This document shows, piece after piece, positions 43,803-59,699 of a DNA stretch of 64,000 bases. The DNA is taken from positions 156,941-220,940 of the forward strand of contig CAZRDX010000007.1 of assembly GCA_964599235.1 (NCBI GenBank). The letters run 5' to 3'. The position numbers were made by a program, and so were the translations under genes. The stretch's first letter is position 1. Each line of letters starts with the position of its first letter. The notes beneath the pieces are model-generated. The model searched no databases and had not been told where the DNA came from. It saw nothing but the letters and a program-made list of their open reading frames with translations. Source of the DNA: an uncultured Rikenellaceae bacterium. GTDB lineage: Bacteria > Bacteroidota > Bacteroidia > Bacteroidales > VadinHA17.

Positions 43803-44540
43803 TCATCTGATGAACTTTTCCCTCTTCTGAAGGTTGAGCAGGCCGGTAAGCAGGAAAAGGGTCCCGCCACTAAGAAGGAAAATACGGTTCCTGACGGTCA
43901 CCGCATGCCACAATGCCTCGTTCATGCGAGAAGGTATGTCGTAAGGGTTATGGAAGACGTTCCAGAAGCTTCTGTACAGGGCTTCTCCCAGGATGAACAT
44001 TCCCACACCCAGGACGACCAGCACCACGGCGGTGCCGGTGCCGCTGCGGATGATCGTGGAAAGCATGAAGGCCAGCATGCCGGTGAAGTACATGGGGACC
44101 ATCAGTTGGGCACTCACCTCAAAGATCCGTATCCGGTAGAGGGTGACGGAGGCGATCTCCGCAAAGAGCAACAACAGGAGATAGAGGATCAGATAAATGA
44201 TCACCAGTCTGACCAGCCACACCTTGTAACGGTAGTTGGGGATGCCGAACAGGATCTCCAGCACTCCCGCATCTTCATCATTCTGAATGCCAAAGACGGT
44301 GGGATAGAAAAGCATGAGGATGCCGGGAAGGATCAGAGCCCCGTAAATGAAAGGGGTTTCCACCGGGCTGCCGTCGTAGACCTTGAGGCCGGCAATGAGA
44401 AGAAAGACCAGGAAAGCCACCAGCACGAACCAGCCAAAGCGCTGGGCAAAGATGATCTTCACATTGTAACGGACCATATTCCGTATGAGAACGACGAGGT
44501 TCCTCACTTTTTTGTTTCTTTTTTTCGGACCAGTCATCAT
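43803..44540 (-). CDS. Small ABC-2-type permease-like membrane protein
   Basis: About 6 TM helices; NDEDAGVLEILFGIP resembles the ABC-2 ERExGTLELLxxxP motif; last gene of the operon. Confidence 0.65.
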   Translation of the reverse strand: MMTGPKKRNKKVRNLVVLIRNMVRYNVKIIFAQRFGWFVLVAFLVFLLIAGLKVYDGSPVETPFIYGALILPGILMLFYPTVFGIQNDEDAGVLEILFGIPNYRYKVWLVRLVIIYLILYLLLLLFAEIASVTLYRIRIFEVSAQLMVPMYFTGMLAFMLSTIIRSGTGTAVVLVVLGVGMFILGEALYRSFWNVFHNPYDIPSRMNEALWHAVTVRNRIFLLSGGTLFLLTGLLNLQKREKFIR

Positions 44541-44553
44541 CTTTCCATTATCG

Positions 44554-47500
44554 TTACCGGATGTCTTTCAGCAGGCAGAGATAAGCGTCTTCGAGGAGGG
44601 GTGTGACCTCCAGGGCCTGTGGCAGGGGTTTTTCCCGTGCGATGAGGCGCACGCGTATCCGTCCGTTCACCTGCATATGATGGACCACCAGCCATTCGCC
44701 GGTTTTTTTTCTGAACTCCTCTTCGCTCACCTCCACCTGCCACACCTTGCCCCGGCCGAAGCGGGTCATCTCCTGGGGGTCGCCCAGATATTTCAGCTCA
44801 CCCCGGTCGATCACGGCCACACGGTTGCAGGAGCTGGCAATGTCTTCGATGATGTGGGTAGAGAAGAGAACGATGCGGTCGCGTGACAGCTCCACCAGCA
44901 GGTTACGGAAACGTATCCTCTCACGCGGGTCGAGGCCTGCGGTGGGTTCGTCCACCACGAGGATACGCGGCAGATGGAGAAGGATCTGTGCGATGCCGAT
45001 ACGTTGTTTCATTCCTCCCGAGAAGGAGCCGATCAATTCGTCGCGGTGGTCCACCATGTGCACGGCCCGCAAGACGTACTCCACACGCTTCTTGCGTGCG
45101 GCAGCATCGGTAAGACCTCTCAGCATCGCCTGGTAATCCAGGTAGTCGCCGGCGGTCATGTTCTCGTACATCCCGAACTCCTGCGGCAGGTAACCGATAT
45201 ATCCCTGCAGTTCCTCCCTTCTCTGCAGCGTATCGTGGCCGTTGATCCACACCTTGCCGTAGCTCTGATCGTAGATGCCGCATACGATACGCATGAGGGT
45301 GGTCTTACCGGCGCCGTTGGGACCGAGCAGGCCGAACATCCCCGTGCCGATCTCGAAGCTGATGCCTTTCAGGGCTTTGAAAGGTGTCCTTTTCCTGCCC
45401 AGCCAGGGGATGATCATCACCAGACGATAAAAGGCACGCCGCAGCCCGCCCAGACGCCCGGTGATCTCCTCTATGTTCACCTTATCACGGTACAGTCTCC
45501 CGGACACGGAAGAGACCGTCAGGGAGAAATACCACAGCAAAGCCGTCAGGATCACCAGGGCTTTGTTGTCCAGCGAGAAGAACAGCCATCCCAGCATCCC
45601 TGCGGGGAGGAACCAGTACAAAAGACGGTGTATCCATTTGTCAAGGCGAGGACCGCTCTTTTTGCCCGTTCTTCGGGAACGGTACTGCAGCATCTGCTGC
45701 CAGGGACGGCAGAGCCACAGGGTCGCCTTCCAGGTGAGGATGGTGAAGACGATCACCCAGAAAGCTTTTTCAAGGTGGATGAACGTGAACCATACCAGGA
45801 AGAGGCAGAGGGGCAGTTGCCACACGAGGTCGTGGAGATCTGCGATCGTGTGGTAGTTCTTTTCCCTGACGGCTTTTTCGCGGATGATCTTTCCCGCCTG
45901 CCACTGACGCACGAACCGGCCCGGGCGGTCGTAGATCTTTACCACGTTCCGGAGCCGGATGGTGATGGGATGCCCTTCGGGGATCAGGCGGGTGCCGGCA
46001 CTGCGGAGGCTGGTGAGCACGAACCAGGTCAGCGCCGGCACACCGACCGTCAGAAGGATCAGCAGGAGCATCCGCCACAGGAAAGAGGCACCGCCCTGCC
46101 AGATCAGCAGCATCCCCGACAGCCAGGACACGGCCATCAGGAGCCTGGTACGCAACGGAAGACGACGTATCCATATCAGGGCATTCTCCAGTCCCGAATA
46201 GAAGACCGGGATCACGACCAGGGTGAGGAGGGTGCTCACCGAGAGACCGCCGATGACGGTGATGGCAAAAGGTGCCCCGATGGCGCTGACATACTCCGCG
46301 TCACCCAGAGCCAGCGGCATCATGGCCACGATGGTGGTGATCGCCGTGATCAGGATGGGTCGCACACGCGAGATACCGGCAGTGAGGATCGCCCGTACCT
46401 TGCGGTTGCCTCGCTGCCTCAGGATGCTGGTGAAATCGATCAGGAGGATGCCGTTGTTAACGACGATACCGATCAGGATGATGAAGCCGGTGAGGGTATT
46501 GGCATTGAACAGGGCGGTACGGGTAAAGATCAGTGCCAGGAAAGAGCCGATGGCTGCCAGGGGGATGGAGAGCATCAGCACGAAGGGGACCGTCAGCGAC
46601 TCGAAGACCGAGGCCAGGATCATGAAGATCAGGAGGACGGCGGCCCCCATCAGGAAATAGAAGTCCCTGAACTGCTCTTCCGGCTTGACGATCTCCAGGC
46701 TCACTCCCGGCGGAAGATGATAGGCATGGAGGAGGGCGGCTACCTCGTCGCGGTAGGAGGCCAGCATTTTTTTTGAGCGGTAGGCTTCCCGCAAGAAAGC
46801 ATATCTGACGGAGATCTGTTTGCTTTGGTTCACGCGCTGGATGTTCCCCTTACCGCTGGCCACGATGATCCTGGCAAAGGTCTGCAGCTCGTGCAGGCTG
46901 CCTCCGCCGCCCCGGACCGGCAGATGGCGCAAGTCGTCCAGGGTCTTACGGGGAATCTGCCCCACGGTGTCGGGGCGGCTGTCGCGGAGGATGATATCGT
47001 AGAGGTCGCCTCCCTGCCTGAAAGTGACCCCCGCCCCCATCTCACCGGAGAAACTGTTCAGCGCCATGCTCACCGCCCCCAGGTCGATACCGTATTCGGT
47101 CATCCTCAGCGGATCGAAATGCAGATGGACCTCGGGACGCACCCAGGGGGAGCTCACCCAGACATAGCTGACCGACTCGAGGGTGTGCAGGAGGTAATCC
47201 AGGTCTTTGGCGACGCGTCGCATGACAGGATAGTCCTCCCCCCTGATGATGAGCTCCTCCCGGTCGCCGCCCATGCCCAGCAGACGCCGAAAACCGGACA
47301 TCATATCCGTGGCTGCTCCGGCGTCGCCGCCGGCCAGGCTCCCCTCTGTCCTGATGGTGGCATGGCTGACATTCCTGAACTTCGCACGTATGTCGCCTAT
47401 GATCTCTTCCATGCTGCGGCCGGTACGGCGGTAGTCTTCTTTCAGGTGGACCGTGATCACCGCTTCACCTGCACGGATGTTACTGATGACCATGCTGCTC

Positions 47501-49257
47501 TCTTCCATCTTCTCCACCGCCTCCTCGATGTTCCGCACCAGCCTGTCGGTGGCGGCGAGAGTAGCCCCCGTGACCATGTTCACACGGATGGTGAGGACCC
47601 GGCTTTTCTCCTCATTCACATTGCGAACATTGATCGACAAAGCGATGAAGATGGTGATGAAAAAGAGGGCCACCGCTCCCAACACCGTTGCGACAGGATG
47701 ACGCAGGCCCGTTTTGAGCAACAGGAGGTAGATCCTGATGATACGATGGCGGATGCTCATCGTCTCGTACAGCGCACCTTTTTTCTTTTGCCGGGAAAGA
47801 ACGGTGTGGGTCGTCATAGGGATGAAGAGCAGGGCCACCGCCAGCGACAACAACAGGGTGGAGATGATGGAGATGCTGATCTCCCGTCCCAGCAGCCTGA
47901 TGAGCATGTTCTGTGCAAACAGGAAAGGCACAAAGACCATCACCGTGGTGAGGGTGGCGGCGAAGACCGACCGCCATACTTCGCGTGTCCCTTCTGTCAC
48001 CGCAAGATCAGGCGGCTCACCCCGTGCCGACCGCCGGTAGATGTTCTCCAGCACCACCACGGAGTTGTCGAGCAGCATGCCGATGGCCAGGACCATCCCG
48101 ATGAGCGAGAAGCTGTTGAGGGTGATGTTGTAGAGATAGAAAAGATTGAACGCACCAAAGACGGAGATGGGCAGGGCGAGGGCCACGAAAGCCACCACGC
48201 GGATGTTCTTCAGGAAGATCCACAGCACCAGGATGGCCAGCAATCCGCCAGTCAGTGCCAGTCGCATGATCTGGTCGATGTTCCGTTCCATGGTTTCGGC
48301 CACGTTGGAGCGGATGATCACGGAAAGCCCCAGCGGCCGGTACTGTTCGTTGAGGTGGCGGATCACCTGTTCGGTCCTGTGGGACAGGTCGATGAGGTTG
48401 GACCGGGTATCGTTGACGAGGGCCACGGAGACGGCATTCTTTCCGTTGACACGGCTCAGGGAAGTCTCTTCCTTGAGGCCGAAATAGACCGTGGCCACGT
48501 CACGCAACAGGATGGGCCCCGGGGCGACGACGATGTTCTCTATCTGGCTCACATCCCGGAAATCGGAGGAGACATACACGAACCACCGTCTTTCCCCGTC
48601 GCGGACGCTGCCGGCGTAGGAGCGGTTTCCCGAGTTCTTTGCCAGGGCCGACCGTACCTGGGCGGGTGTCACGTGATAGATCTTGCAGGCTCCTTCGTCG
48701 AGACGCACCTCGATGCTTCTCTCCCTGCCGCCAAAGATCTGCACTCCGGCGATGCCGTCGATGTTTTCCAGGGCGGGGCGTATCTTCCTCTCGGTGAGCG
48801 CCCGCACCCTGTCCACATCCCCCTCGCCGGTCACCTGCAGCTCCATGAAACGTCTGTTGATACGGCCGGGATCGATGCGTACCACCATCACACGGAAACC
48901 CTCCGGGAGACGGGAACGCGCCGCATTCACCTTCTCCTGCAGCCGCAGATAGGCCAGACGGAAATTCGTCCTTTTCTTGAAAGAGACCCGGATCGTAGCA
49001 TTCCGGCTGTTGAGGTCGGAGCGCACCTCCTCGATCCCTTCGAGGGTGCTCACCACCTCCTCGAGAGGGATCACGGCCGCATTCTCCATGTAGACGGGAT
49101 CCACCTCCGTAGGCGAGATCACCCGGACGATCAGGTAAGGAAGCTCGGGACTGGGATAGAGTTCCACAGGAAGCTGTCGGTACGAGACATACCCCAGCAG
49201 TGTCAGCCCAGTGAAGAGCATGCTGATCAGTACTTTCCTGCGGATGATGAAGTCCAT
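44554..49257 (-). CDS. RND (AcrB/MdtB-like) permease fused to extra TM helices and a C-terminal ABC ATPase
   Basis: RND motifs LPVELYP, GMLLDNSVVVLENI, GIVVNNGILLID, RVRPILITAITT; ABC motifs GPNGAGKTT, YLPQ, FSGGMKQR, ILVVDEPT, STH. Confidence 0.9.
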   Translation of the reverse strand: MDFIIRRKVLISMLFTGLTLLGYVSYRQLPVELYPSPELPYLIVRVISPTEVDPVYMENAAVIPLEEVVSTLEGIEEVRSDLNSRNATIRVSFKKRTNFRLAYLRLQEKVNAARSRLPEGFRVMVVRIDPGRINRRFMELQVTGEGDVDRVRALTERKIRPALENIDGIAGVQIFGGRERSIEVRLDEGACKIYHVTPAQVRSALAKNSGNRSYAGSVRDGERRWFVYVSSDFRDVSQIENIVVAPGPILLRDVATVYFGLKEETSLSRVNGKNAVSVALVNDTRSNLIDLSHRTEQVIRHLNEQYRPLGLSVIIRSNVAETMERNIDQIMRLALTGGLLAILVLWIFLKNIRVVAFVALALPISVFGAFNLFYLYNITLNSFSLIGMVLAIGMLLDNSVVVLENIYRRSARGEPPDLAVTEGTREVWRSVFAATLTTVMVFVPFLFAQNMLIRLLGREISISIISTLLLSLAVALLFIPMTTHTVLSRQKKKGALYETMSIRHRIIRIYLLLLKTGLRHPVATVLGAVALFFITIFIALSINVRNVNEEKSRVLTIRVNMVTGATLAATDRLVRNIEEAVEKMEESSMVISNIRAGEAVITVHLKEDYRRTGRSMEEIIGDIRAKFRNVSHATIRTEGSLAGGDAGAATDMMSGFRRLLGMGGDREELIIRGEDYPVMRRVAKDLDYLLHTLESVSYVWVSSPWVRPEVHLHFDPLRMTEYGIDLGAVSMALNSFSGEMGAGVTFRQGGDLYDIILRDSRPDTVGQIPRKTLDDLRHLPVRGGGGSLHELQTFARIIVASGKGNIQRVNQSKQISVRYAFLREAYRSKKMLASYRDEVAALLHAYHLPPGVSLEIVKPEEQFRDFYFLMGAAVLLIFMILASVFESLTVPFVLMLSIPLAAIGSFLALIFTRTALFNANTLTGFIILIGIVVNNGILLIDFTSILRQRGNRKVRAILTAGISRVRPILITAITTIVAMMPLALGDAEYVSAIGAPFAITVIGGLSVSTLLTLVVIPVFYSGLENALIWIRRLPLRTRLLMAVSWLSGMLLIWQGGASFLWRMLLLILLTVGVPALTWFVLTSLRSAGTRLIPEGHPITIRLRNVVKIYDRPGRFVRQWQAGKIIREKAVREKNYHTIADLHDLVWQLPLCLFLVWFTFIHLEKAFWVIVFTILTWKATLWLCRPWQQMLQYRSRRTGKKSGPRLDKWIHRLLYWFLPAGMLGWLFFSLDNKALVILTALLWYFSLTVSSVSGRLYRDKVNIEEITGRLGGLRRAFYRLVMIIPWLGRKRTPFKALKGISFEIGTGMFGLLGPNGAGKTTLMRIVCGIYDQSYGKVWINGHDTLQRREELQGYIGYLPQEFGMYENMTAGDYLDYQAMLRGLTDAAARKKRVEYVLRAVHMVDHRDELIGSFSGGMKQRIGIAQILLHLPRILVVDEPTAGLDPRERIRFRNLLVELSRDRIVLFSTHIIEDIASSCNRVAVIDRGELKYLGDPQEMTRFGRGKVWQVEVSEEEFRKKTGEWLVVHHMQVNGRIRVRLIAREKPLPQALEVTPLLEDAYLCLLKDIR

Positions 49258-49270
49258 CTTTTCTTTGCGT

Positions 49271-52200
49271 TCAGTCTTGCTGCAGTTTGCTGGCCGTTCT
49301 GCCGGTGATCTTCTCCTTGAACGTGTCGAGGATGTCGTAGATGCAGGGGATCACCACAAGGGTCAGGAGGGTGGAGGTGATGAGGCCGCCGATGACGGCC
49401 AGGGCCATGGAGGAGCGCAGGGCCACGTTCTCTCCGAAACCGATGATCAGTGGCAGCAGGGCCAGGACGGTGGTGATGCTGGTCATCAGGATGGGGCGTA
49501 TGCGTTGCCGGCCGGCCTCGATGATGGCCTCGTGGCGTGGTTTGCCCTCGCGTCGCAGCTGGTTGATGCGGTCGACCAGGATGATCGAGTCGTTCACCGC
49601 GATACCTGCCAGCAGGATCACGCCGATGAGAGCCATGATGTCGAGCGGTCTTCCCAGGATCCAGAAGAGCAGCACCGTCCCCACACCTGCCAGGGGGATG
49701 GTGAGCAGGATGGTGAAGGGATGCACCAGCGACTCGAACTGTGAGGCCAGCACCATGTAAACCAGAAGGATGGAGAGGAGCAGGGCGAAGCGCAGGTTTT
49801 CCATCGAAGCCTTCCGGCGGGCCTCTTCACCTGCCACACGGATACGGTATTCGCGGGGCAAGGTGATACCTGCCAGGACGGCCTCCACCTTTGCGGCCGT
49901 CTTGTCGAGGGCCTCCCCGTCCTCCGTCCGGGCGGTGATGCGTACGAGGCGGCTCTGGTTGCGGCGGAGGATCTCGCGCGGCAGGGTGGTCTGACGTATC
50001 TCCGCAACCTCACCCAGGGTGACGGTGGTATTGCCTTTCCTGATGGCAAGGTCGGCCAGGGCACGCCGGTCCATGGGAGGCAGCTTCACCACGACGGGCT
50101 CCATCCCGCCCCCCAGATCCACCGTGCCACTCTCCCGTCCTGAGAGTTTGTTGCGCAAGGTGGTGGCAACCGTAGCCACATCCAGATCGTATAGGCCGGC
50201 ACGCAGACGGTCGATCACCACCTCCAGGCCGGGGGCCCCCTCTTCCAGAGAGGTGCGGATGTTGAAGATACCTTCGACGGTCCCCATCCGTGACGCCACT
50301 TCCCGGGCAAGATGTTCCAGCACCGTGGGGTCCTCTCCCTGCACCTCCACCACCAGGGGGGCTTCGCCGGTACCCAGGATGGTACGCAAGGCTGTCTCGT
50401 CCCGCACGACCTCCAGTTTCATGCCTTCCACACCTCCGGCCACGCTGCTCAGGGCCCTGACCACTGCCACCGTACTCTCCGGGCGTTCTTTTTTCAGGAT
50501 GATCCGGAGGGTACCGGTGTTCTCTCCCGTGAAGACGCTCTCCCGGTCTCCCCCGCCACTTCTTTCAGCGCCTGCGTGGGTGTACAACATCTCCACGTCG
50601 TCGCCCAGGACTTCCCGCACGACTTCTTCCAGGTTATGCAGCGTTTGTGAAGTATAGGGCAGGGTGGTGCCTTCGGGCAGTGAGACCTTCACGAGGAGCT
50701 CGCTGCCCGGGGCCTGTGGCATGAAAACCATGCCGAGGCGCGGCAGGAGAAAGAAGGCGGCCGCCACCAGGACCACGGCGGCGGCGGTCACCGGCCAGCG
50801 ACGCCGCAACAGCCGCGCCAGAAAAGCGGCATAGCCTCTGAACTTCACCGAATAATGGGCAGGCTTCACCGGCCTGTGACGGAAAAGACGGTAATAAAGC
50901 ATGGGGATCAGGAAGATGGCCACAAAAAGGGAGGAGAGCAGCGAGAAGGCGACGGTCCAGGCCTCGTCCCTGAAGAGCTCGCCGGAAGCACCGTGCATGT
51001 ATACGATGGGCAGGAAGACGACAATGGTGGTGAGCGTGGAGGCGGTAATGGCGCCTCCCACCTCTGCCGTGCCGGTGACCGCCGCCTCCCGCACCCCCAG
51101 GCCGGCCTCGCTGTTGCGGAAAATATTCTCCATCACCACGATGGCATTGTCCACCAACATGCCGGCACCCAGCGCCAGTCCCCCCAGGGTCATGATGTTG
51201 AGCGTCAGACCACCGAAGTACATCAGGTTGAAGGTGGCAATGATCGAGACCGGGATGGCGAGGCTGATGATCAGCGTCACTCCCATACGTCGCAGAAAGA
51301 GGAAGAGCACCAGCACGGCCAGGAGGATACCCAGCAGGGCGGTATCCTTCACCTCACCCACGGCCGCGCTGATATAGGCTCCCTGGTCGTTCACGCGGAG
51401 CAGGTGGTAGCCGGTGAGGGTGGCTTCCATCTCCCGGAGGCGTTCGTTGACCTGTTCCACCGCTTTGACGGTATTGTAACGGGTCTCTTTGTAGAGGGAG
51501 AGGCCCAGGCAACGCCGGCCGTTAAGACGCACGATGCTTTCCGGAGCTTTGTTGTGGTAGGTGATGTCGGCCACCTCGTCCAGATAGACGGGCACCTTCG
51601 TCGCGCCGGTCGCGGAGGGCTGCCCTGTCTGGGGCACAGCTGCGGCGCTTTTGTATCCGACGATGATGTTGCGGAAGTCGTCGAGGCTGCGCAGCAGGCT
51701 CACCCCCTTGACGAGGTACTGCCGTCCCATCTCGGTGACGCTGCCACCGGAGACCGTGCGGTTGAAGCTCTGGATACGCTGTCCCACCCCGTCGAGTGTG
51801 AGGCCGTACGAGCGCAGACGGTACTCGTCGGTGGAGATCAGCACTTCGCCCTCCTCCTCTCCGGCGATCTCCACTGCGGCAATGCCTTCGAGACGTACCA
51901 GCTCATTGCGGAGGTAGCTCTCCGCCACCATCCGCAGACGGTTCATATCGGTGATGTTGTCGTGATAAAAGGCCAGCTGCATCACCGGCGCGCTGTTGGG
52001 ATCATGACGGGTGACGTTCAGCTCAGCGATATCACGGTCCTGTGCTATCGTGCCCAGCGCTTTCTGCAGATCCAGGAAGGCCTCGTCCATGTCTTTGTTC
52101 CAGGCATATTCCACCGTGATGCGCGCCCGGCCCGTACGACACTCGGAAAAAACCTGCACCACCCCGCGCTGCCGGATTGCCAGCGACTCGATGTTTTTCA

Positions 52201-52393: not shown

Positions 52394-52534
52394 GACAAAT
52401 GATCAAAAAATGGTGTATGGTCTGAAATTTCCATGGACTATTTCCTCATCGTTTCCCGTTCATGTGAGTCTTCCGGTGATCGTCCCTTGCGGGACCTTTT
52501 CCGTAGGCTTTTTCATGTCCGGCCGTCTCCTGCA

Positions 52535-53593
52535 TCACTGGATCACTTTCACTTTCGACTCATTGCGCAGGGTCTCGAAGCCTTTGATTACCAGGCTCAT
52601 GTTCTTCTCAAGGCCGTCCACCACCTCCACTTCCCCGGCGTTCTCAATGCCGGTGACGATCTTGCGTTCGCGGGCCAGGCCGTTCCGGACGATGAACACT
52701 CTTTTTCTTCCGTCCCTTTCCAGGATGTATTTCTTGGGGATGACGATGACACTGTCCTTGCGCCGGAGGATGATGTCCGTCTTCACGAACATGCCGGGGC
52801 GGAAGATCCTGTCGGGATTGTCGACCGTCATCACCACCTTGAAGGTACGGGTTTCGGTGCTGAGTGCCGGCGAGATCTCGCTGATGCGGCCGTAGAGGGT
52901 ATCTTCCCGGATCACATAGCTGACGATCCGCACCTGCTGACCCGTTTTCACTTGGGGAAGGTATTTCTCCGGCAGTTGCACCTCCGCATACATTTTCCGG
53001 TAATCCATCAGGCGGAACATCTCCTGTCCCGCCGGCAGCCGGACGCCGTCGGTATGGTGCGGCAGGTCGACAAGGTAACCGGTGAAAGGGGCCCGAACCT
53101 TCATCTTTTCCAGCTTGAGGAGGGTATTGCGGTACTCATTCTCGGCATTGATCCAGGCGATCTCCGCATTGCGCAGCTCGCGGAGGGTCACTCCTCCTTT
53201 TTCATAGAGTGATCTCTGTTTGTCGTACTCCTGTCTGGAGATCTCCATGTTCAGTTTCCTGGACCGCAGGTTGAGGTTGTATTCATATTCCTTGTCCTCC
53301 ATCACCACGATCACTGCATCTTTTTCCACCCTGTCCCCCATGCGATAGGGGCGGCCGGTGACAGGGTTGTTCTGCAGACGGTACCTGCCGGCCACCTCGT
53401 TCTTCACCACCGCCTCCCTGACCGGCATAAGGGTACCGCTGGTGGTGATAAGAGCCTCGATGCTTCCGGTGCCCACCTTCATCACCGTGACGGGCAGCGC
53501 TACCTCCTTCTCGTATCCGGGCTCCCATGTCCGGCACATAGTGAGCGAAAGCGAGATGCCGAGAAAAAAGGTCCATTGGATCATTTTCTTCAT
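52535..53593 (-). CDS. RND periplasmic adaptor (membrane fusion protein)
   Basis: Lipoyl halves, coiled hairpin, KVRAPFTG, TRTFKV, FRPGM, VEVVDGL. Alternative start at 53626. Confidence 0.92.
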   Translation of the reverse strand: MKKMIQWTFFLGISLSLTMCRTWEPGYEKEVALPVTVMKVGTGSIEALITTSGTLMPVREAVVKNEVAGRYRLQNNPVTGRPYRMGDRVEKDAVIVVMEDKEYEYNLNLRSRKLNMEISRQEYDKQRSLYEKGGVTLRELRNAEIAWINAENEYRNTLLKLEKMKVRAPFTGYLVDLPHHTDGVRLPAGQEMFRLMDYRKMYAEVQLPEKYLPQVKTGQQVRIVSYVIREDTLYGRISEISPALSTETRTFKVVMTVDNPDRIFRPGMFVKTDIILRRKDSVIVIPKKYILERDGRKRVFIVRNGLARERKIVTGIENAGEVEVVDGLEKNMSLVIKGFETLRNESKVKVIQ

Positions 53594-53632
53594 GGCTGAT
53601 GTTGTTTGGATGATCATTTTGTTCAATTTTTT

Positions 53633-55180
53633 TTATTGTTCTCCGGCCTCCGGAGTCCGGAGGAAAAGATTGGCTGGCACCAGGGGTTGTTGGTGCTCAA
53701 AGTCGTAAAGGGTCTGTATTTTCAGATTGAGCAGCTCCAGCTTGTAGTTGATGAGCGCCTGGGCATAGGCCATCTTTTTCTGGGACAGCTGGTTCTGGTA
53801 AAGGTTCAGGTCCATGCTCGTCAGGTCGCCGTTGCGGTAGCGTTCGAGGTTGATCTCATAAGTGAGCTCTGCATTCCTGACATTCTGTTTGGCTATGGAG
53901 ATCTGGTTGAGCTGGTTCCTGAGGTTCCTGTACACTTTTCTGATGTCGATGATGATCTGTTTCTTCTCCTCGTCGAGGTTGAGCTGCTGGCTTTCGATAA
54001 CGGCCTCCTGGGCGCGTATGCGTGCTTTCTTCTCTCCCCAGTCGAAGAGGGGGATGCGGAAAGAGAGGGCGACGCTGGGGTTGTTGGTGGGTTTGTCGTA
54101 GATCTGTCCCAGGGCCGGGTCGTCCCCCATGATGCCGATGGCGAGCCCCAGATCCCCCCGGAACTCGTTCATGGCCCGTGTACGTATCAGCTGGAACTGC
54201 GAGCTCTCGATGTCGATCTCCCGCTGGCGCAGCTCCATGCGCGAACTGAGACCGTACTGCACGGCTTTTTCGAGATCGACTTCCACCTGGGGTACGGAAA
54301 TATCGGCCAGGATGACGATCGAATCATGCAGGTCCATGCCGAGAAAACGCTTGAACTCATCCTTGGCGTTCTCCAGGTCCACCTTCTTGTTCTCCACCGC
54401 CGAGCGGGCCGTGGCCAGGTTCAGCTCAGCCTGGTAAAGCTCTTCTTTGGCCGACAATCCGGCCTCCACCTTGCGTTTGATGATCTCGTAGCTGCGTTGG
54501 GTATTGTCCAGCTCGGCACGGGCAATGTCAAGGCTCATCTGATAGAGATAGACATTGTAAAAAAAGCGTGTGACGTTCTTTTCCAGGTTCAGCTTCTGCA
54601 AGGCATAGCTGATGTTGGCATTCTCGTAGTTGAGCTCCAGCTCCCGCAGGTCGAGCTTCATCCGGTTGTAGGTGAAAAGGGGCTGGTTGTAGCTCAGGTA
54701 GAGACGGTTCGTAAAGCTCTCGTTCTGCTCGACGTCCCCCGTGAAATCCGACATGTTCTTCTGCCAACCGAAACGGTTGATCAGCGAGACGGTACCGTCG
54801 GTCCATTTGATGGGCTGATCGATACGGAAAGTACCGTATGACTGGAAGTTCCTGTTGGTGAACCACTTGTTGAAACGGTTGTCGAACATCCTGCTCTGAT
54901 CGAAGGTGACGGGGTTAAGGTCCATCGAGAACTTCGACCTGAGCGAGGCCCGCTGGGCGTTGAGCGATTCCCGGTAACGGGAGAGGTTGAGCAACGACCG
55001 CCGGATGTCGGGACTGTTGCGGCCCGCGATGGCGATCGACTTGTCCAGAGTGAGAGCCACCTGGGCACCGCTCTCCCGGAGCAGCATCGGAAACGACAAC
55101 AGGACCAGTGCGAGAAGGCACCTTTTCCACGAGGCGATCGGTTTCATGACGACATTTCTTTTCATGCTGTTCTTTTTCAT
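53633..55180 (-). CDS. TolC family outer-membrane factor
   Basis: LTLDKSIAIA, YNQPLF, RIPLFDWG, ERYRNG.LTS.DL; helical OEP repeats. Start uncertain (55180/55165/55147). Confidence 0.9.
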   Translation of the reverse strand: MKKNSMKRNVVMKPIASWKRCLLALVLLSFPMLLRESGAQVALTLDKSIAIAGRNSPDIRRSLLNLSRYRESLNAQRASLRSKFSMDLNPVTFDQSRMFDNRFNKWFTNRNFQSYGTFRIDQPIKWTDGTVSLINRFGWQKNMSDFTGDVEQNESFTNRLYLSYNQPLFTYNRMKLDLRELELNYENANISYALQKLNLEKNVTRFFYNVYLYQMSLDIARAELDNTQRSYEIIKRKVEAGLSAKEELYQAELNLATARSAVENKKVDLENAKDEFKRFLGMDLHDSIVILADISVPQVEVDLEKAVQYGLSSRMELRQREIDIESSQFQLIRTRAMNEFRGDLGLAIGIMGDDPALGQIYDKPTNNPSVALSFRIPLFDWGEKKARIRAQEAVIESQQLNLDEEKKQIIIDIRKVYRNLRNQLNQISIAKQNVRNAELTYEINLERYRNGDLTSMDLNLYQNQLSQKKMAYAQALINYKLELLNLKIQTLYDFEHQQPLVPANLFLRTPEAGEQ

Positions 55181-55225
55181 TCGTTGGTCATTCTTTTTCC
55201 CGCCCTTATCCGCCGGCGCGCAGGA

Positions 55226-58200
55226 TCATTCTTTCATCAGTTTCACGGCATCGGCCACCACGATCCAGTAACCGGTCTTGTCGGAGAGTTCGATGACAGC
55301 GGTATCAGCAGGAAAGTAATAGAATCCCAGGCTGTTCCATCCGGGACTGCTGCCTCTGAGCACCAGCGAGGTCTCATCGACCACATCGCCGTGACGGATG
55401 CGGAACTCATACCTGTTGTCCCCCCGTCTGTTGTTCCAGCGGAATTTTCTGTAGTCGAGGTAATAGTAGACGGTGTAATACCCTGCTTCCGGCACGGGGA
55501 CTTTCCAGGTGGCCTTTTTCTTCCCCTCACCGGCGCGGACGAACCAGGCCGAACGTACGAACCTGCCGTAGAAAGCATTGCTGGTGGTCAGGGTCCAGTT
55601 GATCGGCCGCCACCATGAAAACCCGGAATATTTTTTCCCCTGTTGTTTGGACTTCACCAGCAGTCTGTAGAAAAGGCCTTCGTTGCCGGGTTCCGTGAGA
55701 GAAAAACCCGGATCCTCGTTATCCACCAGGAGGGTTCCCTCGGGTATGTAACGGAACTGATCCGCCGGGAAGGTCACGCTTCCCCTCTCGGGGGGGTACG
55801 TCAGCACGGTATGATCCACAACAGGATCCTCGTAAAGGATCATGGGGATGTTGCGGGAGACCATGGTGACATAGGTCACTCCGCCTCTGGTCCCGTCCAC
55901 CAGATAACGGATCCTGCGGGCCTGGCGGGCACCGAACCATACCACATGCTCGACGGGCGGATCGAGGCCCTCGAAGAGGATCCTCACCGCGCCGCTCCCC
56001 TCCCCTTTGTTGGCGATGGTGACCGAAAAAAGCCACCGTACATACCCCTCCTCCGTCACCCTGGTAAAACGGGCCTGAGAAAAAAGATAGGCAGGGAGGC
56101 TTTTGCCGGAATACCAGTTCTCCAGGTATTTCCCCAACGGATAGCCGGACAGCTGTTCCAGGTCTTCCAGCAAAGTATCGAAGGGGACCTTCGAGAACCA
56201 TCTTTGTTCCAGCCACCGGTGCAGGAAAGTATCCAACACTTCCTCCTCTTCCAGGTGGGCTTTCACTGCCAAGAAGAACATCTCTCCCTTCAGGCGTATG
56301 ACATTGTCCAGGATATCTTGTCCGGAGGGGGTGGTCAACAGTTCGCGGAAGCTTTTGTTCTGCAGTGCCATGTTGGCTCGTTCATCCTCACTCAGACCCG
56401 TATAGCGCCGTACCCAGTCGTTGCCTGTACCCACCCACGGCACTTTCAGGTAAGCTTCCATCACCCGGTTCATCACCGGCCAGCTGGAGGAGCTGAGGAA
56501 AAAACGGTGGTCGAAATATTCCGGGAATATGTTCAGCTCATTGGGGCGGGAGTTCAGCGCCCCTGCTCCCCCCGCCACCCTGCGCAGATTGTACTGAACG
56601 GTCTCCGTCAGGAACAGGTAAAAGAAACTGTTGAGAACGGTACCCATCATCTCCTTTTCCGTTCTTTTCTCCCGCGACCATCTGGACCATCTTTTCAGAT
56701 TCTCGAAATACCCCGAGAAGTTGGCCTGATAATGGGCTGCTCCTTTTTCCTCCATGAAGACGATGGCGGGCTGTACATTCTCCATGGCACCCATCCAAAG
56801 ATGCTGGTAGGAATGGAACTGGATGGGCACCTCCACCAGCGAGAAAGTGCGAAAAGGATAGTGCAGTCCCAGCTTGTTCTCGTATTCCTGCATCCTTTCC
56901 CGCAGGATCTTACGGATGGTATCATTGTCCAGCCTGGGCAGGGAACCCACAAAATAATCATGCCCCCGGAGGGTAAAGACCCTGAAGAGGATGCTGTCGG
57001 AGGGTGTAGGCAGGCTGTCGACGGTGAGACGGTGCTCCACATAATCCCCGATGGCCAGTGAGATCTGCGGCAGCAGGGTGTCACAAATGAAAGTGATGCC
57101 GTCCCCTTCGCGGCGGGCCGTACCCTGGCTGATGACACGGCTGCTGTCGATCCCCTCCACATGGAGACGGAAACGGATGAAGTCTTTTCTGAACCACCCC
57201 GGATGACGGGGACTATAAGTGGTGCCGGTCACGGGATACCAGAGTGTCTCAGGAGTCAGCAACACATAATCCGGCGTGACAAAGGCAAAGGAGGATGCCA
57301 CTTTCACCCCTCCCAGGAGATGGGGCATGCGGAAAGTGTCGATGTCGGGATAGCAGATACGGTCATCGATGGTCCCCGCATAGCGAAGATCCAGCGAGAG
57401 GGTATCCCCCGGCCGGAGCGGATGAGGTGGGGTCACCAGCAACAGGTGCAGCCGGCGTTGCCAGGCGACCTTCTTCCCGCCGGCCGCGAGAGAAGAGACA
57501 TGCAGACCGGGGTTGAGGCTCAGCACCACCCTGTCGACGACCGTGTCGTTGTCATTGACCAGCAACATATGGGATGTGAGAGCAAGATGGCGACCCTGAT
57601 GACGGAGCCCGATACGGTGTTCCTTCACCGACAGTGCAGGCCGTCTTGCATAGGCATCATTGAGTCCGAGCAGGCGGGCACGCAGCTCTCTCTCCTCCTG
57701 ACGCAGATAGAGATGCTGCCAGGCAGCCCCACCTGCAGCCGCCAGAAAGAAAAAAGCCAGCCCCAGTGAGACCACCCGCTCCCACCCCGCAGCGGGAAGA
57801 CGCCGCAACAGAAAGACCGTCAAAAAAACAAAGGAGACCCCAAGAAAAGAATAGAAAAGACGCTGGAAAAGAAAATCTTCCCAACGGTCAAAACCGGTGA
57901 TGCCGGACTTCAGCATCGGCATTTCCCATCCGGAAAAGTCGAAAAGGCCACCGGCACGCCCCTTCAGGTAAAATAGCACCAGGGCCAGGTATCCCAGCAC
58001 GAGAAGGAAAGTGACCGCCTGGTTGCGCAACAGGGTCATCAGCAGAAAGGCAAGACCCACGATGAAAAGCAACGTGGGCAGGACCAGGAACAGGAGGTAC
58101 TCAAAATAGGCAGCCACATCGAGCGAGGCCTGCCCGGAGATGATGTTGAAGACCGTCACCACAGCCATCAGCAGGAGGTCGGTCACGAGGAAAACCAGCA

Positions 58201-58546
58201 GGTTGGCCCAGGCCTTGCCCAGCACATATTCATGATTGCTCACGGGTCGGGTGTAGACCACCTCGGCCGTGTCCAGGTTCCGGTCACGCCTGAGGAAATC
58301 GGCGGCGAGGAAGACGGCCACCACCGACTGGGCCAGGTTAATGTACAGGAGATTGCGATAGGGGATCGAAGCAGGAAGGGCCACCCATTCCCAGGAAGGG
58401 GATTCCTGGACTCCCGTGACGAGAAAAAGATTGACGAAAAAAAGGAGGATCAGCCCCAGGAAAAGGAAGACCCGCAGGAACCAGCTGCGCTGCAGGGTGG
58501 TCCTCTCATAGCGGGCAATGGTACCGATGGCAGAGAAAGAGATCAT
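55226..58546 (-). CDS. ABC-2 permease fused to an M1 aminopeptidase-like domain (GAMEN present, no HExxH) and a Golvesin/xanthan-lyase-C-like beta-sandwich
   Basis: RDRNLDTAEVVYTRPVS...GK; TM bundle; LNPGL, L.PGD...Y.G, WYP, YPF...LVEVP...GAMEN; C-terminal VDNED.GF...ATW...EAGYY.VY...GWNSLG.Y...ADAVK. Confidence 0.8.
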   Translation of the reverse strand: MISFSAIGTIARYERTTLQRSWFLRVFLFLGLILLFFVNLFLVTGVQESPSWEWVALPASIPYRNLLYINLAQSVVAVFLAADFLRRDRNLDTAEVVYTRPVSNHEYVLGKAWANLLVFLVTDLLLMAVVTVFNIISGQASLDVAAYFEYLLFLVLPTLLFIVGLAFLLMTLLRNQAVTFLLVLGYLALVLFYLKGRAGGLFDFSGWEMPMLKSGITGFDRWEDFLFQRLFYSFLGVSFVFLTVFLLRRLPAAGWERVVSLGLAFFFLAAAGGAAWQHLYLRQEERELRARLLGLNDAYARRPALSVKEHRIGLRHQGRHLALTSHMLLVNDNDTVVDRVVLSLNPGLHVSSLAAGGKKVAWQRRLHLLLVTPPHPLRPGDTLSLDLRYAGTIDDRICYPDIDTFRMPHLLGGVKVASSFAFVTPDYVLLTPETLWYPVTGTTYSPRHPGWFRKDFIRFRLHVEGIDSSRVISQGTARREGDGITFICDTLLPQISLAIGDYVEHRLTVDSLPTPSDSILFRVFTLRGHDYFVGSLPRLDNDTIRKILRERMQEYENKLGLHYPFRTFSLVEVPIQFHSYQHLWMGAMENVQPAIVFMEEKGAAHYQANFSGYFENLKRWSRWSREKRTEKEMMGTVLNSFFYLFLTETVQYNLRRVAGGAGALNSRPNELNIFPEYFDHRFFLSSSSWPVMNRVMEAYLKVPWVGTGNDWVRRYTGLSEDERANMALQNKSFRELLTTPSGQDILDNVIRLKGEMFFLAVKAHLEEEEVLDTFLHRWLEQRWFSKVPFDTLLEDLEQLSGYPLGKYLENWYSGKSLPAYLFSQARFTRVTEEGYVRWLFSVTIANKGEGSGAVRILFEGLDPPVEHVVWFGARQARRIRYLVDGTRGGVTYVTMVSRNIPMILYEDPVVDHTVLTYPPERGSVTFPADQFRYIPEGTLLVDNEDPGFSLTEPGNEGLFYRLLVKSKQQGKKYSGFSWWRPINWTLTTSNAFYGRFVRSAWFVRAGEGKKKATWKVPVPEAGYYTVYYYLDYRKFRWNNRRGDNRYEFRIRHGDVVDETSLVLRGSSPGWNSLGFYYFPADTAVIELSDKTGYWIVVADAVKLMKE

Positions 58547-59466
58547 CGGGAAGGGCTGAGGTTACGGAAAGCTTCATCCTCCACCTCTTCCCTCAGCACA
58601 TTCTCCATATAGTGGACGTAGGCATGTTCCAGGTTGGGTTCAACAGGTTCGGCATCATACCCTCCGGGATCATCCGCGACCACCTGCATGATCCACCCCT
58701 CACGTCCCGGCATGGTCGAGATGACGGAGAACCTTTCGTTCACCCGCACATATTCCTCATCGCCGGCCCTGATCTGCCACACATGCCCCCGGGCCATGTC
58801 GATGAGTTCGGAAGGAGTGCCGTGGAAGGCGATCCTTCCCCGGTGGAGGAGGGTCATCTGATTGCAGGTACTGGAGATATCCCCCACGATGTGTGTAGAG
58901 AGAATGACGATCACCTCACCGGCACCGATATCGGAAAGGAGGTTACGGAAACGGATACGTTCTTCGGGGTCGAGACCGGTGGTGGGCTCATCGACGATGA
59001 GCACGCGGGGCCGGTGGATGAGCGCCTGGGCGATCCCCAGTCGTCTTTTCATCCCGCCGGAGAGTTTCGTGGCCATTCTGTCCCGGGCCTCAAAAAGTCC
59101 AACCTCACGCAGGATACGGTCGATCTCCTCACCCCGCCGCCGGCCGTTACGCATCCCGCCCAGACGGGCCATGTAGTCCATGAACTCATATACGCGCAAA
59201 CGCGGAAAACGGCTGAACTCCTGGGGAAGATACCCCAGCAGCCGGCGTACCCTGCCCCGCTGCCGCTGCAGGTCAAGACCCGCTATCTTCACCTCACCCG
59301 CAGTGGGAAGCATCAGCGTCACCAGAATGCGCATCAGGGTCGACTTGCCGGCACCATTGGGCCCCAGCAGACCGAAAATACCCGTACCTATGTCCAGATC
59401 GATCTCTTCCAAGGCCACGTGACCGTTGGGATAGACCTTGCGAAGCGAACGAATGGTGATCTCCAC
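58543..59466 (-). CDS. ABC transporter ATP-binding protein (ABC-2/DrrA-like)
   Basis: GPNGAGKST, YLPQ, LSGGMKRR, LIVDEPT, STH. Probable GTG start at 59466 (ORF track gives 59520); ATGA overlap with the next gene. Confidence 0.93.
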   Translation of the reverse strand: MEITIRSLRKVYPNGHVALEEIDLDIGTGIFGLLGPNGAGKSTLMRILVTLMLPTAGEVKIAGLDLQRQRGRVRRLLGYLPQEFSRFPRLRVYEFMDYMARLGGMRNGRRRGEEIDRILREVGLFEARDRMATKLSGGMKRRLGIAQALIHRPRVLIVDEPTTGLDPEERIRFRNLLSDIGAGEVIVILSTHIVGDISSTCNQMTLLHRGRIAFHGTPSELIDMARGHVWQIRAGDEEYVRVNERFSVISTMPGREGWIMQVVADDPGGYDAEPVEPNLEHAYVHYMENVLREEVEDEAFRNLSPSR

Positions 59467-59619
59467 GATATTTTTGTAAATGACCGTTACATAAAAATAG
59501 CCATCCCACCGGTCAATCACCTGTCACATTTCCCTGTCTCTCCAAGGACCGGGGCCCTGTCTTCCCTGATATCATTCAGAAACTTTCCGTTCCTCCCTGT
59601 TTCATCCTTAACAACGTAT

Positions 59620-59646: not shown

Positions 59647-59653
59647 AGAATCG

Positions 59654-59667: not shown

Positions 59668-59699
59668 TTTTCAGTGCATTTTTCGGGGATGGTGCCCGC

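What the first reader, a model, noticed from the sequence alone, without database searches (positions are those of the whole stretch)
43803..59466. Seven-gene hybrid RND-ABC envelope machine of unknown function (top candidate system)
Seen, in transcription order: ABC ATPase, [ABC-2 permease::M1-like::Golvesin-like], TolC, MFP, RND, [RND::TM::ABC ATPase], small ABC-2-like permease. All are on one strand, with an ATGA overlap and mostly short gaps, and end at a terminator. The operon thus has two ATPases, two ABC-2 membrane subunits, two RND subunits, one MFP and one TolC. Established: RND pumps are proton-driven trimers and ABC exporters are ATP-driven; they normally form separate tripartite systems. 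Inference: the fusion physically couples an ABC complex to a heteromeric RND-MFP-TolC channel, for example an ABC flippase, extractor or sensor handing a peptide or lipid substrate to the RND. I know of no functional description, although homologs may exist as automatic annotations in other Bacteroidota.
Basis: partly seen in the sequence, partly recalled or inferred. Interest (0 to 1): 0.86.

Follow-up and report, generated by a model that had tools for sequence, protein, structure and literature searches.

The report
Conserved RND pump fused to ABC ATPase
A seven-gene operon encodes a normally proton-driven three-part efflux pump whose second membrane subunit is permanently fused to an ATP-driven transporter motor; the operon recurs unchanged in hundreds of bacterial species, and no study of it was found.

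Summary
Seven minus-strand genes (43803-59466) encode:
- an ABC ATPase;
- a 7-TM ABC-2 permease with a periplasmic M1-aminopeptidase-like domain and a Golvesin_C domain;
- an OMF, an MFP and an RND;
- an RND::linker::ABC-ATPase fusion of 1567 aa;
- a 6-TM protein with no Pfam family.

The fusion is not an artefact.
- More than 120 full-length homolog clusters (53-77% identity) were found.
- 143 clusters at 50% identity contain the linker, and every complete one is about 1570 aa.
- 411 of 185,579 species genomes encode a relative of the linker.
- The gene order g2-g7 is colinear in 63 of 64 informative loci.
- The first six genes also occur in order in Calditrichota and Gemmatimonadota contigs.

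New details:
- The M1-like domain has the M1 fold but no HEXXH zinc site.
- The fused ATPase has all catalytic motifs, but its first strand (A-loop Tyr) appears to be separated from the rest by an insertion of about 175 aa with four helices.
- Both RND paralogs carry a non-canonical proton relay (D-N / N-N/D instead of D-D / K).

The most likely function is a single envelope-spanning exporter in which an ABC-2 module is tethered to a heteromeric RND-MFP-OMF pump. The mechanism is inferred and the substrate is unknown. I found no functional description. It is a new variant of known kinds and of high interest.

The parts
59467..59699 (-). 5' intergenic region upstream of g1, with an A/T-rich tract around 59650-59675. 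This is the presumed promoter and leader.
   Evidence: Sequence read. No Rfam family was found. Promoter function was not tested, and the sigma-70 scan is not suited to Bacteroidota.
58543..59466 (-). g1: ABC ATPase, 307 aa, GTG start, DrrA/GldA-like.
   Evidence: ABC_tran 110 bits. Best NCBIfam hits are DrrA at 1.2e-56 and GldA at 2.7e-53, both below their cut-offs. Walker A, Q-loop, signature, Walker B and H-loop are all canonical. It is 47% identical to the g6 NBD over 268 aligned residues.
55226..58546 (-). g2: 1106-aa membrane protein made of an ABC-2 type TMD, TM7 with a stalk, and a large periplasmic domain.
   Evidence: Pfam hits. AF2 model with pLDDT 88.7 and pTM 0.87. 237 homolog clusters (E <= 1e-5); all 120 listed cover 93-100% of the query at 30-63% identity.
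57707..58546 (-). g2 residues 1-280: N-terminal interface helix and 7 TM helices (ABC-2 fold plus one extra TM).
   Evidence: ABC2_membrane_2 at 33.7 bits against a cut-off of 27.2. Helices in the AF2 model include a 46-residue helix at 254-299. Hydropathy profile.
56102..57649 (-). g2 residues ~300-815: M1-aminopeptidase-like fold without the zinc site (a pseudo-peptidase).
   Evidence: Foldseek against the PDB matches IRAP, ERAP1 and a two-domain M1 peptidase at E 4e-17 to 1e-16, probability 1.0. There is no HEXXH, GAMEN is not conserved, and Q592, P593 and E600 are invariant.
55235..55600 (-). g2 residues 983-1104: Golvesin_C beta-sandwich, related to CBM6/35/36-like modules.
   Evidence: PF25275 at 46.4 bits against a cut-off of 31.6. 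PMC9166713 groups golvesin with CBM6-CBM35-CBM36_like_2 domains.
53633..55180 (-). g3: outer-membrane factor (TolC family).
   Evidence: OEP at 147 bits in two stretches. TIGR01844 at 1.5e-28, below its cut-off.
52535..53626 (-). g4: periplasmic adaptor (MFP). The likely true start is the ATG at 53593.
   Evidence: TIGR01730 RND_mfp at 194.6 bits against a cut-off of 94.9. Most orthologs are 351-352 aa.
49271..52393 (-). g5: RND permease, 1040 aa.
   Evidence: ACR_tran at 700 bits, positions 2-1020 of 1021. Best PDB hit is MdtB at 5e-80. TM4 reads LVDNAIV and TM10 reads AVNDSII.
46192..49257 (-). g6 residues 1-1022: second RND permease module.
   Evidence: ACR_tran at 565 bits, full length. 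Best PDB hit is MdtB at 9e-67. TM4 LLDNSVV, TM10 VVNNG and TM11 R966 are invariant in 20 orthologs.
45388..46191 (-). g6 residues 1023-1290: a linker found only in this fusion. It contains 2 TM helices, a beta strand, then four long helices.
   Evidence: No Pfam or NCBIfam hit. AF2 secondary structure. Hydropathy profile. The linker profile finds only fusion proteins. It is unrelated to g7 or the g2 TMD by hhalign.
45922..45966 (-). g6 residues 1098-1112 (ITIRLRNVVKIYDRP): the presumed first strand and A-loop Tyr of the NBD, separated from the rest of the NBD by about 175 aa.
   Evidence: VKIY[DE]R is invariant or nearly so. It is the best match to the g1 N-terminus; 55 of 2000 shuffles scored as high. 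The only beta strand in the AF2 linker model falls at residues 1100-1108.
44554..45387 (-). g6 residues 1291-1567 plus stop codon: ABC nucleotide-binding domain core and C-terminal domain.
   Evidence: ABC_tran at 98.7 bits. GPNGAGKT, FSGGMKQR, ILVVDEP and STH are invariant in 20 orthologs.
43803..44540 (-). g7: conserved 245-aa, 6-TM protein with no Pfam family. It is the probable membrane partner of an ABC ATPase.
   Evidence: Six hydrophobic segments. Present in 79 of 80 loci. 4384 clusters at E <= 1e-3, all listed ones without Pfam domains. The match to the g2 TMD is weak but in register.
43711..43741 (.). Hairpin with a 14-bp stem (8 G-C pairs) between the convergent g7 and citrate synthase genes. 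It is the presumed bidirectional terminator.
   Evidence: Terminator scan. Sequence read.

Best explanation
The seven genes encode one self-contained, envelope-spanning export machine.

Proposed assembly (inferred):
- g5 and g6 form a mixed RND trimer of the MdtB/MdtC kind.
- This trimer docks to the adaptor g4 and the outer-membrane channel g3.
- Because g6 carries a covalently attached ABC ATPase held at the membrane by six extra helices, an ABC-2 type module is permanently tethered to the RND trimer. That module consists of the ATPases g1 and g6-C and the membrane subunits g2 and g7. It is most simply a g1/g2 + g6C/g7 heterodimer descended from a duplicated ATPase-permease pair.

Proposed mechanism (inferred):
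- ATP hydrolysis by the ABC module extracts or flips an amphiphilic substrate from the cytoplasm or inner leaflet. A peptide or a glycan-bearing lipid is suggested by the inactive M1-like and CBM-like periplasmic domains of g2.
- The substrate is then presented at the periplasmic face.
- The RND-MFP-OMF part expels it across the outer membrane.

Shown here: the domain architecture, the intact ATPase motifs, the conservation of the fusion and of the gene set, the M1 fold without a zinc site, and the independence from neighbouring genes.

Inferred only: the physical complex, its stoichiometry, the hand-over step and the substrate class.
For: - The fusion is conserved full-length in more than 120 clusters at 53-77% identity.
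- The linker profile finds 143 clusters at 50% identity, and every complete protein is 1550-1590 aa.
- 411 of 185,579 species genomes encode a relative of the linker.
- g2C-g3-g4-g5-g6-g7 are colinear in 63 of 64 loci with enough upstream sequence.
- g1-g2 adjacency and full or six-gene order were seen in Gaoshiqia, another Bacteroidota chromosome, a close relative, and in Calditrichota, Gemmatimonadota and one unplaced contig.
- There is no conserved downstream neighbour; the largest cluster covers 11 of 62 loci. Upstream neighbours vary.
- Both ATPases have canonical Walker A, Walker B, signature and H-loop motifs. They are 47% identical paralogs that share a C-terminal domain.
- g2 passes the Pfam ABC-2 cut-off. 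Its model shows 7 TM helices, a 46-residue stalk helix and an M1-like domain.
- Two RND paralogs are always present, and the best solved match for both is MdtB, a subunit of the known heterotrimeric pump (PMC8277102).
- From my own knowledge: RND pumps capture substrates from the periplasm or outer leaflet, and single-component inner-membrane pumps cooperate with them. DrrABC (ABC-2) and MmpL7 (RND) jointly export PDIM in mycobacteria.
Against: - There is no direct evidence for a complex, for stoichiometry or for any substrate.
- g7 could not be shown to be an ABC-2 permease: hhalign probability is 0.3-0.5% and the best HMM E-value is 0.015.
- Both ATPases have consensus sites, so homodimeric g1₂g2₂ and g6C₂g7₂ units are equally possible.
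- The RND proton relay is non-canonical, so proton drive of the second step is assumed, not shown.
- No biosynthetic or regulatory gene is linked that would point to a substrate.
- g7 conservation was checked only in Bacteroidota loci.
Confidence: 0.45

Rival explanations
1. The ABC module is a mechanotransducer or gate rather than a first-stage transporter. ATP binding and hydrolysis in the cytoplasm would be transmitted through TM7 and the stalk of g2, and through the six linker helices of g6. This would move the periplasmic M1-like/Golvesin domain or the RND porter domains, as in MacB, LolCDE, FtsEX or NosDFY. Nothing would pass through the ABC membrane domains.
For: - g2 has a 46-residue continuous helix (254-299) that runs from TM7 into a large rigid periplasmic domain.
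- The g2 TMD belongs to the NosY-type ABC2_membrane_2 family, and JGI names several homologs after the NosY COG.
- The first strand of the g6 NBD appears to be separated from the rest of the NBD by a membrane insertion, which ties the NBD closely to membrane helices.
- The M1-like domain is catalytically dead but conserved, as expected for a binding or scaffold domain.
Against: - No FtsX/MacB-type fold or family was detected.
- ABC-2 transporters are mostly true exporters.
- No model of the complex is available.
Confidence: 0.25
2. Two or three functionally independent transporters are simply co-expressed: a g1/g2 ABC transporter, a g3-g6 RND pump, and a g6C/g7 ABC unit. The fusion would only ensure co-localisation or equal dosage, with no mechanistic coupling.
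For: - Each part has a complete set of motifs for its own family.
- NBD-TMD gene pairs sit at the two ends of the operon.
Against: - The fusion and the exact gene order persist across at least three phyla and down to about 50% identity.
- No unfused version of the linker-NBD was found among 1.84 billion representatives. The shorter hits that retain the NBD have a complete C-terminus of about 270 aa and look like 5'-truncated fragments.
- That degree of conservation is hard to explain without a functional need for the covalent link.
Confidence: 0.15
3. The RND trimer has lost or reduced proton coupling and is energised wholly or partly by the fused ATPase.
For: - Both paralogs have D-N in TM4 and N-N or N-D in TM10. 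Every solved HAE-1 pump that I inspected in alignment has D-D and K at these positions.
- A canonical D-D RND was found in one genome that carries the operon (L032).
- The NBD is welded to the RND through six helices.
Against: - The equivalents of AcrB D407 and R971 are invariant in g6 and conserved in g5. A single Asp/Arg pair is enough in other RND-superfamily members such as SecDF (my own knowledge).
- The baseline for D-N pumps that are not fused is a single flanking gene.
- g5 has no ATPase yet shares the same relay.
Confidence: 0.1
4. The fusion is an assembly, frameshift or read-through artefact.
For: None found.
Against: The same 1550-1590-aa architecture occurs in complete chromosomes and in hundreds of independent assemblies.
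Confidence: 0.01

Closest known systems
MdtABC-TolC (E. coli/Salmonella), a tripartite RND pump with two different RND subunits
   Same: - Two adjacent RND paralog genes sit beside one MFP gene.
- MdtB is the best solved match of both g5 (5e-80) and g6 (9e-67).
- RND heterotrimers are documented for MdtBC (PMC8277102).
   Different: - The OMF is encoded in the operon here.
- One RND carries six extra helices and an ABC ATPase.
- The proton relay is D-N / N-N/D, not D-D / K.
- The operon also holds an ATPase, an ABC-2 permease fusion and a 6-TM protein.
- Sequence similarity to MdtB is distant: the scores fall far below the curated MdtB and MdtC cut-offs.
ABC-2 (type V) exporters with accessory periplasmic parts: NosDFY, GldAFG, DrrABC, KpsMT-KpsED
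   Same: - The ATPases are DrrA/GldA-like.
- g2 passes the ABC2_membrane_2 cut-off.
- ATPase and permease are separate, adjacent genes.
- A large periplasmic domain is attached to the permease.
- From my own knowledge: DrrABC works with the RND protein MmpL7 in PDIM export, and KpsMT works with a periplasmic adaptor and an outer-membrane channel.
   Different: - In none of those systems is the ATPase fused to an RND protein.
- None has an NBD interrupted by membrane helices.
- The periplasmic domain here is an inactive M1 peptidase fold plus Golvesin_C, unlike NosD, GldG or KpsE.
- All curated NCBIfam cut-offs (DrrA, GldA) are missed.
MacAB-TolC and DevBCA-HgdD (ABC-driven tripartite exporters)
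   Same: An ATPase-driven inner-membrane unit is combined with an MFP and a TolC-like channel.
   Different: - MacB and DevC have the FtsX fold with 4 TM helices, and no such family was detected here.
- The MFP here is RND-type (TIGR01730).
- A full RND trimer is present.
M1 aminopeptidases (PepN, ERAP1, IRAP, two-domain M1 of Deinococcus)
   Same: The fold of g2 residues ~300-815 matches: Foldseek E 4e-17 to 1e-16, TM-score 0.6 against the two-domain enzyme. A few homologs have weak PF01433 hits.
   Different: - There is no HEXXH...E zinc site.
- GAMEN is not conserved in the family.
- The domain is anchored to an ABC-2 membrane domain.

Membership tests
Tripartite RND efflux pump (AcrAB-TolC / HAE type) | A 12-TM RND permease with two large periplasmic loops | tested here: met
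   ACR_tran covers positions 2-1020 of 1021 in g5 (700 bits) and 3-1018 in g6 (565 bits).
Tripartite RND efflux pump (AcrAB-TolC / HAE type) | A cognate periplasmic adaptor and an outer-membrane factor | tested here: met
   g4 scores 194.6 bits on TIGR01730 against a cut-off of 94.9. g3 has two OEP repeats, 147 bits.
Tripartite RND efflux pump (AcrAB-TolC / HAE type) | The AcrB-type proton relay: TM4 D407/D408, TM10 K940, TM11 R971 | tested here: not met
   The D407 and R971 equivalents are present. D408 is replaced by N and K940 by N in both g5 and g6 and in their orthologs.
Tripartite RND efflux pump (AcrAB-TolC / HAE type) | Curated NCBIfam subfamily score (RND_permease_2, cut-off 1250 bits) | tested here: not met
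   g5 scores 578 bits and g6 scores 473 bits.
Heteromultimeric RND pump (MdtBC type) | Two RND paralog genes kept side by side with one adaptor gene | tested here: met
   g5 and g6 are adjacent in all 63 colinear loci, and in other phyla.
Heteromultimeric RND pump (MdtBC type) | A mixed trimer of the two subunits | not testable with these tools
   This needs multimer modelling, pull-down or cryo-EM.
ABC transporter ATPase (NBD) | Walker A, Q-loop, LSGGQ-type signature, Walker B with catalytic Glu, and H-loop | tested here: met
   g1 has all five motifs. In g6, Walker A, signature, Walker B and H-loop are invariant in 20 orthologs and the LPQEF Q-loop residues are invariant or nearly so.
ABC transporter ATPase (NBD) | A contiguous NBD fold, with the A-loop strand about 25 residues before Walker A | tested here: not met
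   In g6 the candidate A-loop strand (residues 1098-1112) lies about 200 residues before Walker A (1312-1319). Four predicted helices lie between them. The 3-D packing could not be checked because the model was lost.
ABC-2 (type V) permease | Pfam ABC2_membrane family score above the gathering cut-off | tested here: met
   This row is for g2: PF12679 scores 33.7 bits against a cut-off of 27.2.
ABC-2 (type V) permease | The same feature, tested for g7 | tested here: inconclusive
   - The window protein has no Pfam hit.
- 1 of 41 orthologs hits PF12698 at E 0.001.
- hhalign against the g2 TMD gives probability 0.3-0.5%, but the alignment is in register over TM1-5.
- The best HMM E-value is 0.015.
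M1 zinc aminopeptidase | The M1 fold: N-terminal beta domain plus thermolysin-like domain | tested here: met
   Foldseek E 4e-17 to 1e-16, probability 1.0, using a model with pLDDT 88.7.
M1 zinc aminopeptidase | The HEXXH-X18-E zinc site and a conserved GXMEN exopeptidase motif | tested here: not met
   There is no HEXXH. GAMEN occurs in the window protein but the family consensus differs. Pfam Peptidase_M1 was not detected at E <= 0.01.
MacB/FtsX type VII ABC mechanotransducer | FtsX-fold permease with 4 TM helices and a periplasmic Sabre/Porter domain | tested here: not met
   No FtsX or MacB_PCD family was detected in any of the seven proteins.

The most novel reading that the evidence does not exclude
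This would be a new mode of energy coupling. A primary (ATP) motor and a secondary (ion-gradient) transporter would be joined in one polypeptide. The ATPase domain is itself interrupted by a four-helix membrane insertion, so nucleotide binding would be read directly by membrane helices packed against the RND. The RND pump would then be ATP-gated or ATP-powered, not merely fed by an ABC exporter.
Probability: 0.15. Interest if true: 0.92.

Novelty: new variant of a known kind. Interest (0 to 1): 0.78.

Why it matters
- RND pumps and ABC transporters are the two main engines of export across the Gram-negative envelope. They are treated as separate machines with separate energy sources.
- A covalent, deeply conserved RND-ABC hybrid would be a natural test case for a long-discussed idea: that inner-membrane exporters and periplasm-capturing RND pumps act in series.
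- It could also reveal ATP control of an RND pump.
- It gives context to two families without a known function: the g7 family (4384 clusters, no Pfam entry) and the ABC-2::inactive-M1::Golvesin_C family.
- Cultured carriers make experiments feasible. They include Draconibacterium orientale DSM 25947, Prolixibacter bellariivorans ATCC BAA-1284, Prolixibacter denitrificans DSM 27267, Maribellus luteus XSD2 and Gaoshiqia Z1-71.

Tried and rejected
1. **Is the fused RND (g6) specifically proton-dead compared with g5?** I rejected this idea. g5 orthologs vary between N-N and N-D in TM10, so the window's Asp is not conserved. The unusual relay is shared by both paralogs.
2. **Is g7 an ABC-2 permease?** hhalign, reciprocal HMM searches and Pfam scans of 41 orthologs gave only weak support, although the alignment is in register. 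My first run was invalid because the input file also held unrelated proteins. It was redone.
3. **Is the g6 linker related to g7 or the g2 TMD?** No; hhalign probability was 0.2% or less.
4. **Fold search of the g6 C-terminal model.** The packing of the split strand and the fold of the six extra helices are therefore untested.
5. **Are there unfused linker-NBD proteins?** I found none that is convincing. The shorter hits that retain the NBD keep a complete C-terminus of about 270 aa with a variable N-terminus, so they look like 5'-truncated fragments.
6. **Are there conserved neighbours or regulators?** None downstream, and the upstream genes vary. There is no Rfam element or tRNA.
7. **Literature.** Five full-text searches for RND-ABC fusions, ABC-2/M1 fusions and related phrases found nothing relevant. 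A golvesin search gave only the CBM-like classification.
8. **Exact-sequence look-up of the window's own fusion protein.** It is not on record.


Full report
**1. The observation**

The region 43803-59466 holds seven ORFs on the minus strand. Pfam and NCBIfam give the following:
- g1 (58543-59466): ABC_tran.
- g2 (55226-58546): ABC2_membrane_2 above the gathering cut-off, and Golvesin_C above its cut-off.
- g3 (53633-55180): two OEP repeats.
- g4 (52535-53626): RND_mfp well above its cut-off.
- g5 (49271-52393): full-length ACR_tran.
- g6 (44554-49257): full-length ACR_tran followed by ABC_tran at residues 1296-1440.
- g7 (43803-44540): nothing.

The operon layout also matches the finding.
- g1 and g2 overlap by ATGA. 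The other gaps are 45, 6, 141, 13 and 13 nt.
- A 14-bp hairpin at 43711-43741 separates g7 from a convergent citrate synthase gene.

Small corrections are needed.
- g1 starts with GTG.
- g4 probably starts 11 codons later, judging by ortholog lengths.

The window is from a member of the Bacteroidota: it carries SusC/SusD pairs and a protease with a T9SS sorting domain. The closest relatives of the fusion are in Bacteroidales and Rikenellaceae MAGs.

**2. The fusion is real and the gene set is conserved**

The evidence for the fusion itself is as follows.
- A search with g6 found more than 120 clusters that cover 99-100% of the query. They are 1550-1587 aa long and 53-77% identical. All carry ACR_tran plus ABC_tran, and all are named only by pipelines.
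- A profile of the linker alone (residues 1022-1300) was scanned against one genome per species. It found relatives in 411 of 185,579 genomes. The best 80 are all Bacteroidales/Marinilabiliales and include cultured Prolixibacter, Draconibacterium, Maribellus and Gaoshiqia.
- The same profile was searched against 1.84 billion representative proteins and found 143 clusters. Every complete protein is 1550-1590 aa with the linker at about 1022-1300. The shorter hits that still contain the NBD keep a full C-terminus of about 270 aa with a variable N-terminus, and the remaining short hits are partial pieces, so all look like gene fragments rather than unfused forms.

The evidence for the gene set is as follows.
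- In the 80 loci, g2(C-terminus)-g3-g4-g5-g6-g7 are colinear in 63 of the 64 with enough upstream sequence. The one exception stops at a contig end.
- The g1-g2 end was checked in six further loci:
  - Gaoshiqia, with all seven genes;
  - a 4.6-Mb chromosome;
  - a close relative;
  - a Calditrichota contig;
  - an unplaced 0.98-Mb contig;
  - a Gemmatimonadota MAG, which has two tandem g2 paralogs.
- g2 homologs also occur in KSB1.
- There is no conserved downstream neighbour, and upstream genes differ between lineages. The seven genes therefore form a self-contained module.

**3. Anatomy of the parts**

*ATPases.* Both g1 and the g6 NBD have canonical Walker A, signature, Walker B and H-loop motifs. 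In g6 these are invariant across 20 orthologs. The two are 47% identical paralogs and share a C-terminal domain.

*g6 linker.* It matches no family and is unrelated to g7 or to the g2 membrane domain. Hydropathy and the AF2 model (pLDDT 77) show this order: two helices after RND TM12, one beta strand at residues 1100-1108, four long helices (about 1138-1258), then the NBD core.

Three lines of evidence suggest that the strand is the NBD's own first strand with the A-loop tyrosine.
- Its sequence (ITIRLRNVVKIYDRP) contains the invariant VKIY[DE]R.
- It is the best match in the linker to the N-terminus of g1 (EITIRSLRKVYP). Only 55 of 2000 shuffles scored as high.
- It is the only strand the model places in the linker.

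I therefore read the g6 NBD as split by a membrane insertion of about 175 residues. This rests on three modest lines of evidence. It could not be checked in three dimensions because the model was lost before the fold search.

*g2.* The AF2 model is confident (pLDDT 88.7, pTM 0.87). From N- to C-terminus it shows:
- an N-terminal amphipathic helix;
- seven TM helices, the last running on as a 46-residue stalk;
- a beta domain plus a helical domain;
- two beta sandwiches.

Foldseek against the PDB matches M1 aminopeptidases at E 4e-17 to 1e-16. The family alignment has no HEXXH. The window's GAMEN is not conserved, whereas Q592, P593 and E600 are invariant. The domain is therefore an inactive M1 fold, probably a binding or scaffold domain.

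Golvesin_C is grouped with CBM6/35/36-like carbohydrate-binding modules (PMC9166713). This is a hint of glycan contact, not a demonstration.

*g7.* It has six hydrophobic segments and a very conserved loop between TM2 and TM3. There are 4384 homolog clusters, and none of those listed has a Pfam domain. Its similarity to the g2 membrane domain is in register but not significant.

*RND modules.* The best solved match for both is MdtB. Both have TM4 D-N and TM10 N-N or N-D, where every solved pump I inspected in alignment has D-D and K. The R971 equivalent is kept. A canonical D-D RND lies in the flank of one carrier genome.

**4. How it most likely works**

*What is shown.*
- There are two RND paralogs, one adaptor and one channel.
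- There are two catalytically intact ATPases and two non-identical membrane partners. One of these carries a large periplasmic domain.
- One ATPase is covalently and invariably joined to one RND.

*What is inferred.*
- A mixed RND trimer forms, with MdtBC as the precedent (PMC8277102).
- An ABC-2 type module is tethered to it, most simply as g1/g2 + g6C/g7.
- The ABC module would bring an amphiphilic substrate to the periplasmic face, and the RND-MFP-OMF part would expel it.

The idea of serial action, and the DrrABC/MmpL7 analogy, come from my own knowledge.

I rate this model at 0.45. The rivals are:
- ATP-driven mechanotransmission or gating, 0.25;
- independent co-expressed pumps, 0.15;
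- an ATP-powered RND, 0.10;
- an artefact, about 0.01.

The substrate is unknown. The inactive peptidase fold points towards peptides and the CBM-like domain towards glycans. No linked biosynthetic gene helps to decide.

**5. Comparison with known systems, and novelty**

- It works like a tripartite RND pump combined with an ABC-2 exporter.
- It fails the AcrB-type relay test and the curated NCBIfam cut-offs.
- The M1 domain fails the catalytic-site test.
- The g6 NBD fails the contiguity test.
- No MacB/FtsX features are present.

Five full-text searches found no description of such a fusion or operon. All database names are automatic.

I class it as a new variant of known kinds. The parts are familiar. 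What has not been described is the covalent RND-ABC hybrid, the split NBD and the fixed seven-gene set.

**6. Verdict**

Interest is 0.78.

Noticed in passing
window 15486-29065 (+): A SusC-like TonB-dependent receptor (15486-18587), a SusD-like protein (18599-20029) and a Fib_succ_major protein (20075-21517) are followed by a 2515-aa S8 subtilase. The subtilase has Ig-like repeats and a T9SS C-terminal sorting domain (21518-29065). This looks like a PUL-like locus built around a giant secreted protease.
   Followed up: partly
window 55226-58546, g2 residues 586-590: The window's g2 carries a perfect GAMEN motif, the M1 exopeptidase signature. Only the Glu is moderately conserved in 120 homologs, and no HEXXH follows. 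The motif is therefore either a relic or chance.
   Followed up: yes
L085:6251-13423: The Gemmatimonadota version of the operon has two tandem g2 paralogs (1138 and 1140 aa) between the ATPase and the OMF. One of them has a weak Peptidase_M1 hit.
   Followed up: no
L001:15693-24704: In Gaoshiqia Z1-71 the operon is followed directly by a cluster of transposase and tyrosine-recombinase genes (DDE_Tnp_1, rve, Y2_Tnp, Phage_integrase).
   Followed up: no
window 52394-52534: The 141-nt gap between g4 and g5 is the only long intergenic gap inside the operon. The gap length differs among relatives (roughly 5 to 170 nt by tblastn coordinates) and no Rfam family matches.
   Followed up: partly
window 59700-60362 (-) and L087:317-988: A calcineurin-like metallophosphoesterase gene lies just upstream of g1 on the same strand, both here and in a close relative. 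It is absent in more distant carriers.
   Followed up: partly
window 60847-63581 (-): Two ORFs of 309 and 621 aa upstream of the operon have no Pfam family at E <= 0.001.
   Followed up: no
window 31149-33848 (-): An 899-aa regulator combines a MalT-like TPR region with a LuxR/GerE HTH domain.
   Followed up: no
window 59650-59675: A run of about 15 T (on the minus strand) preceded by A-rich sequence sits about 190 nt upstream of the g1 start. Its function is unknown.
   Followed up: no
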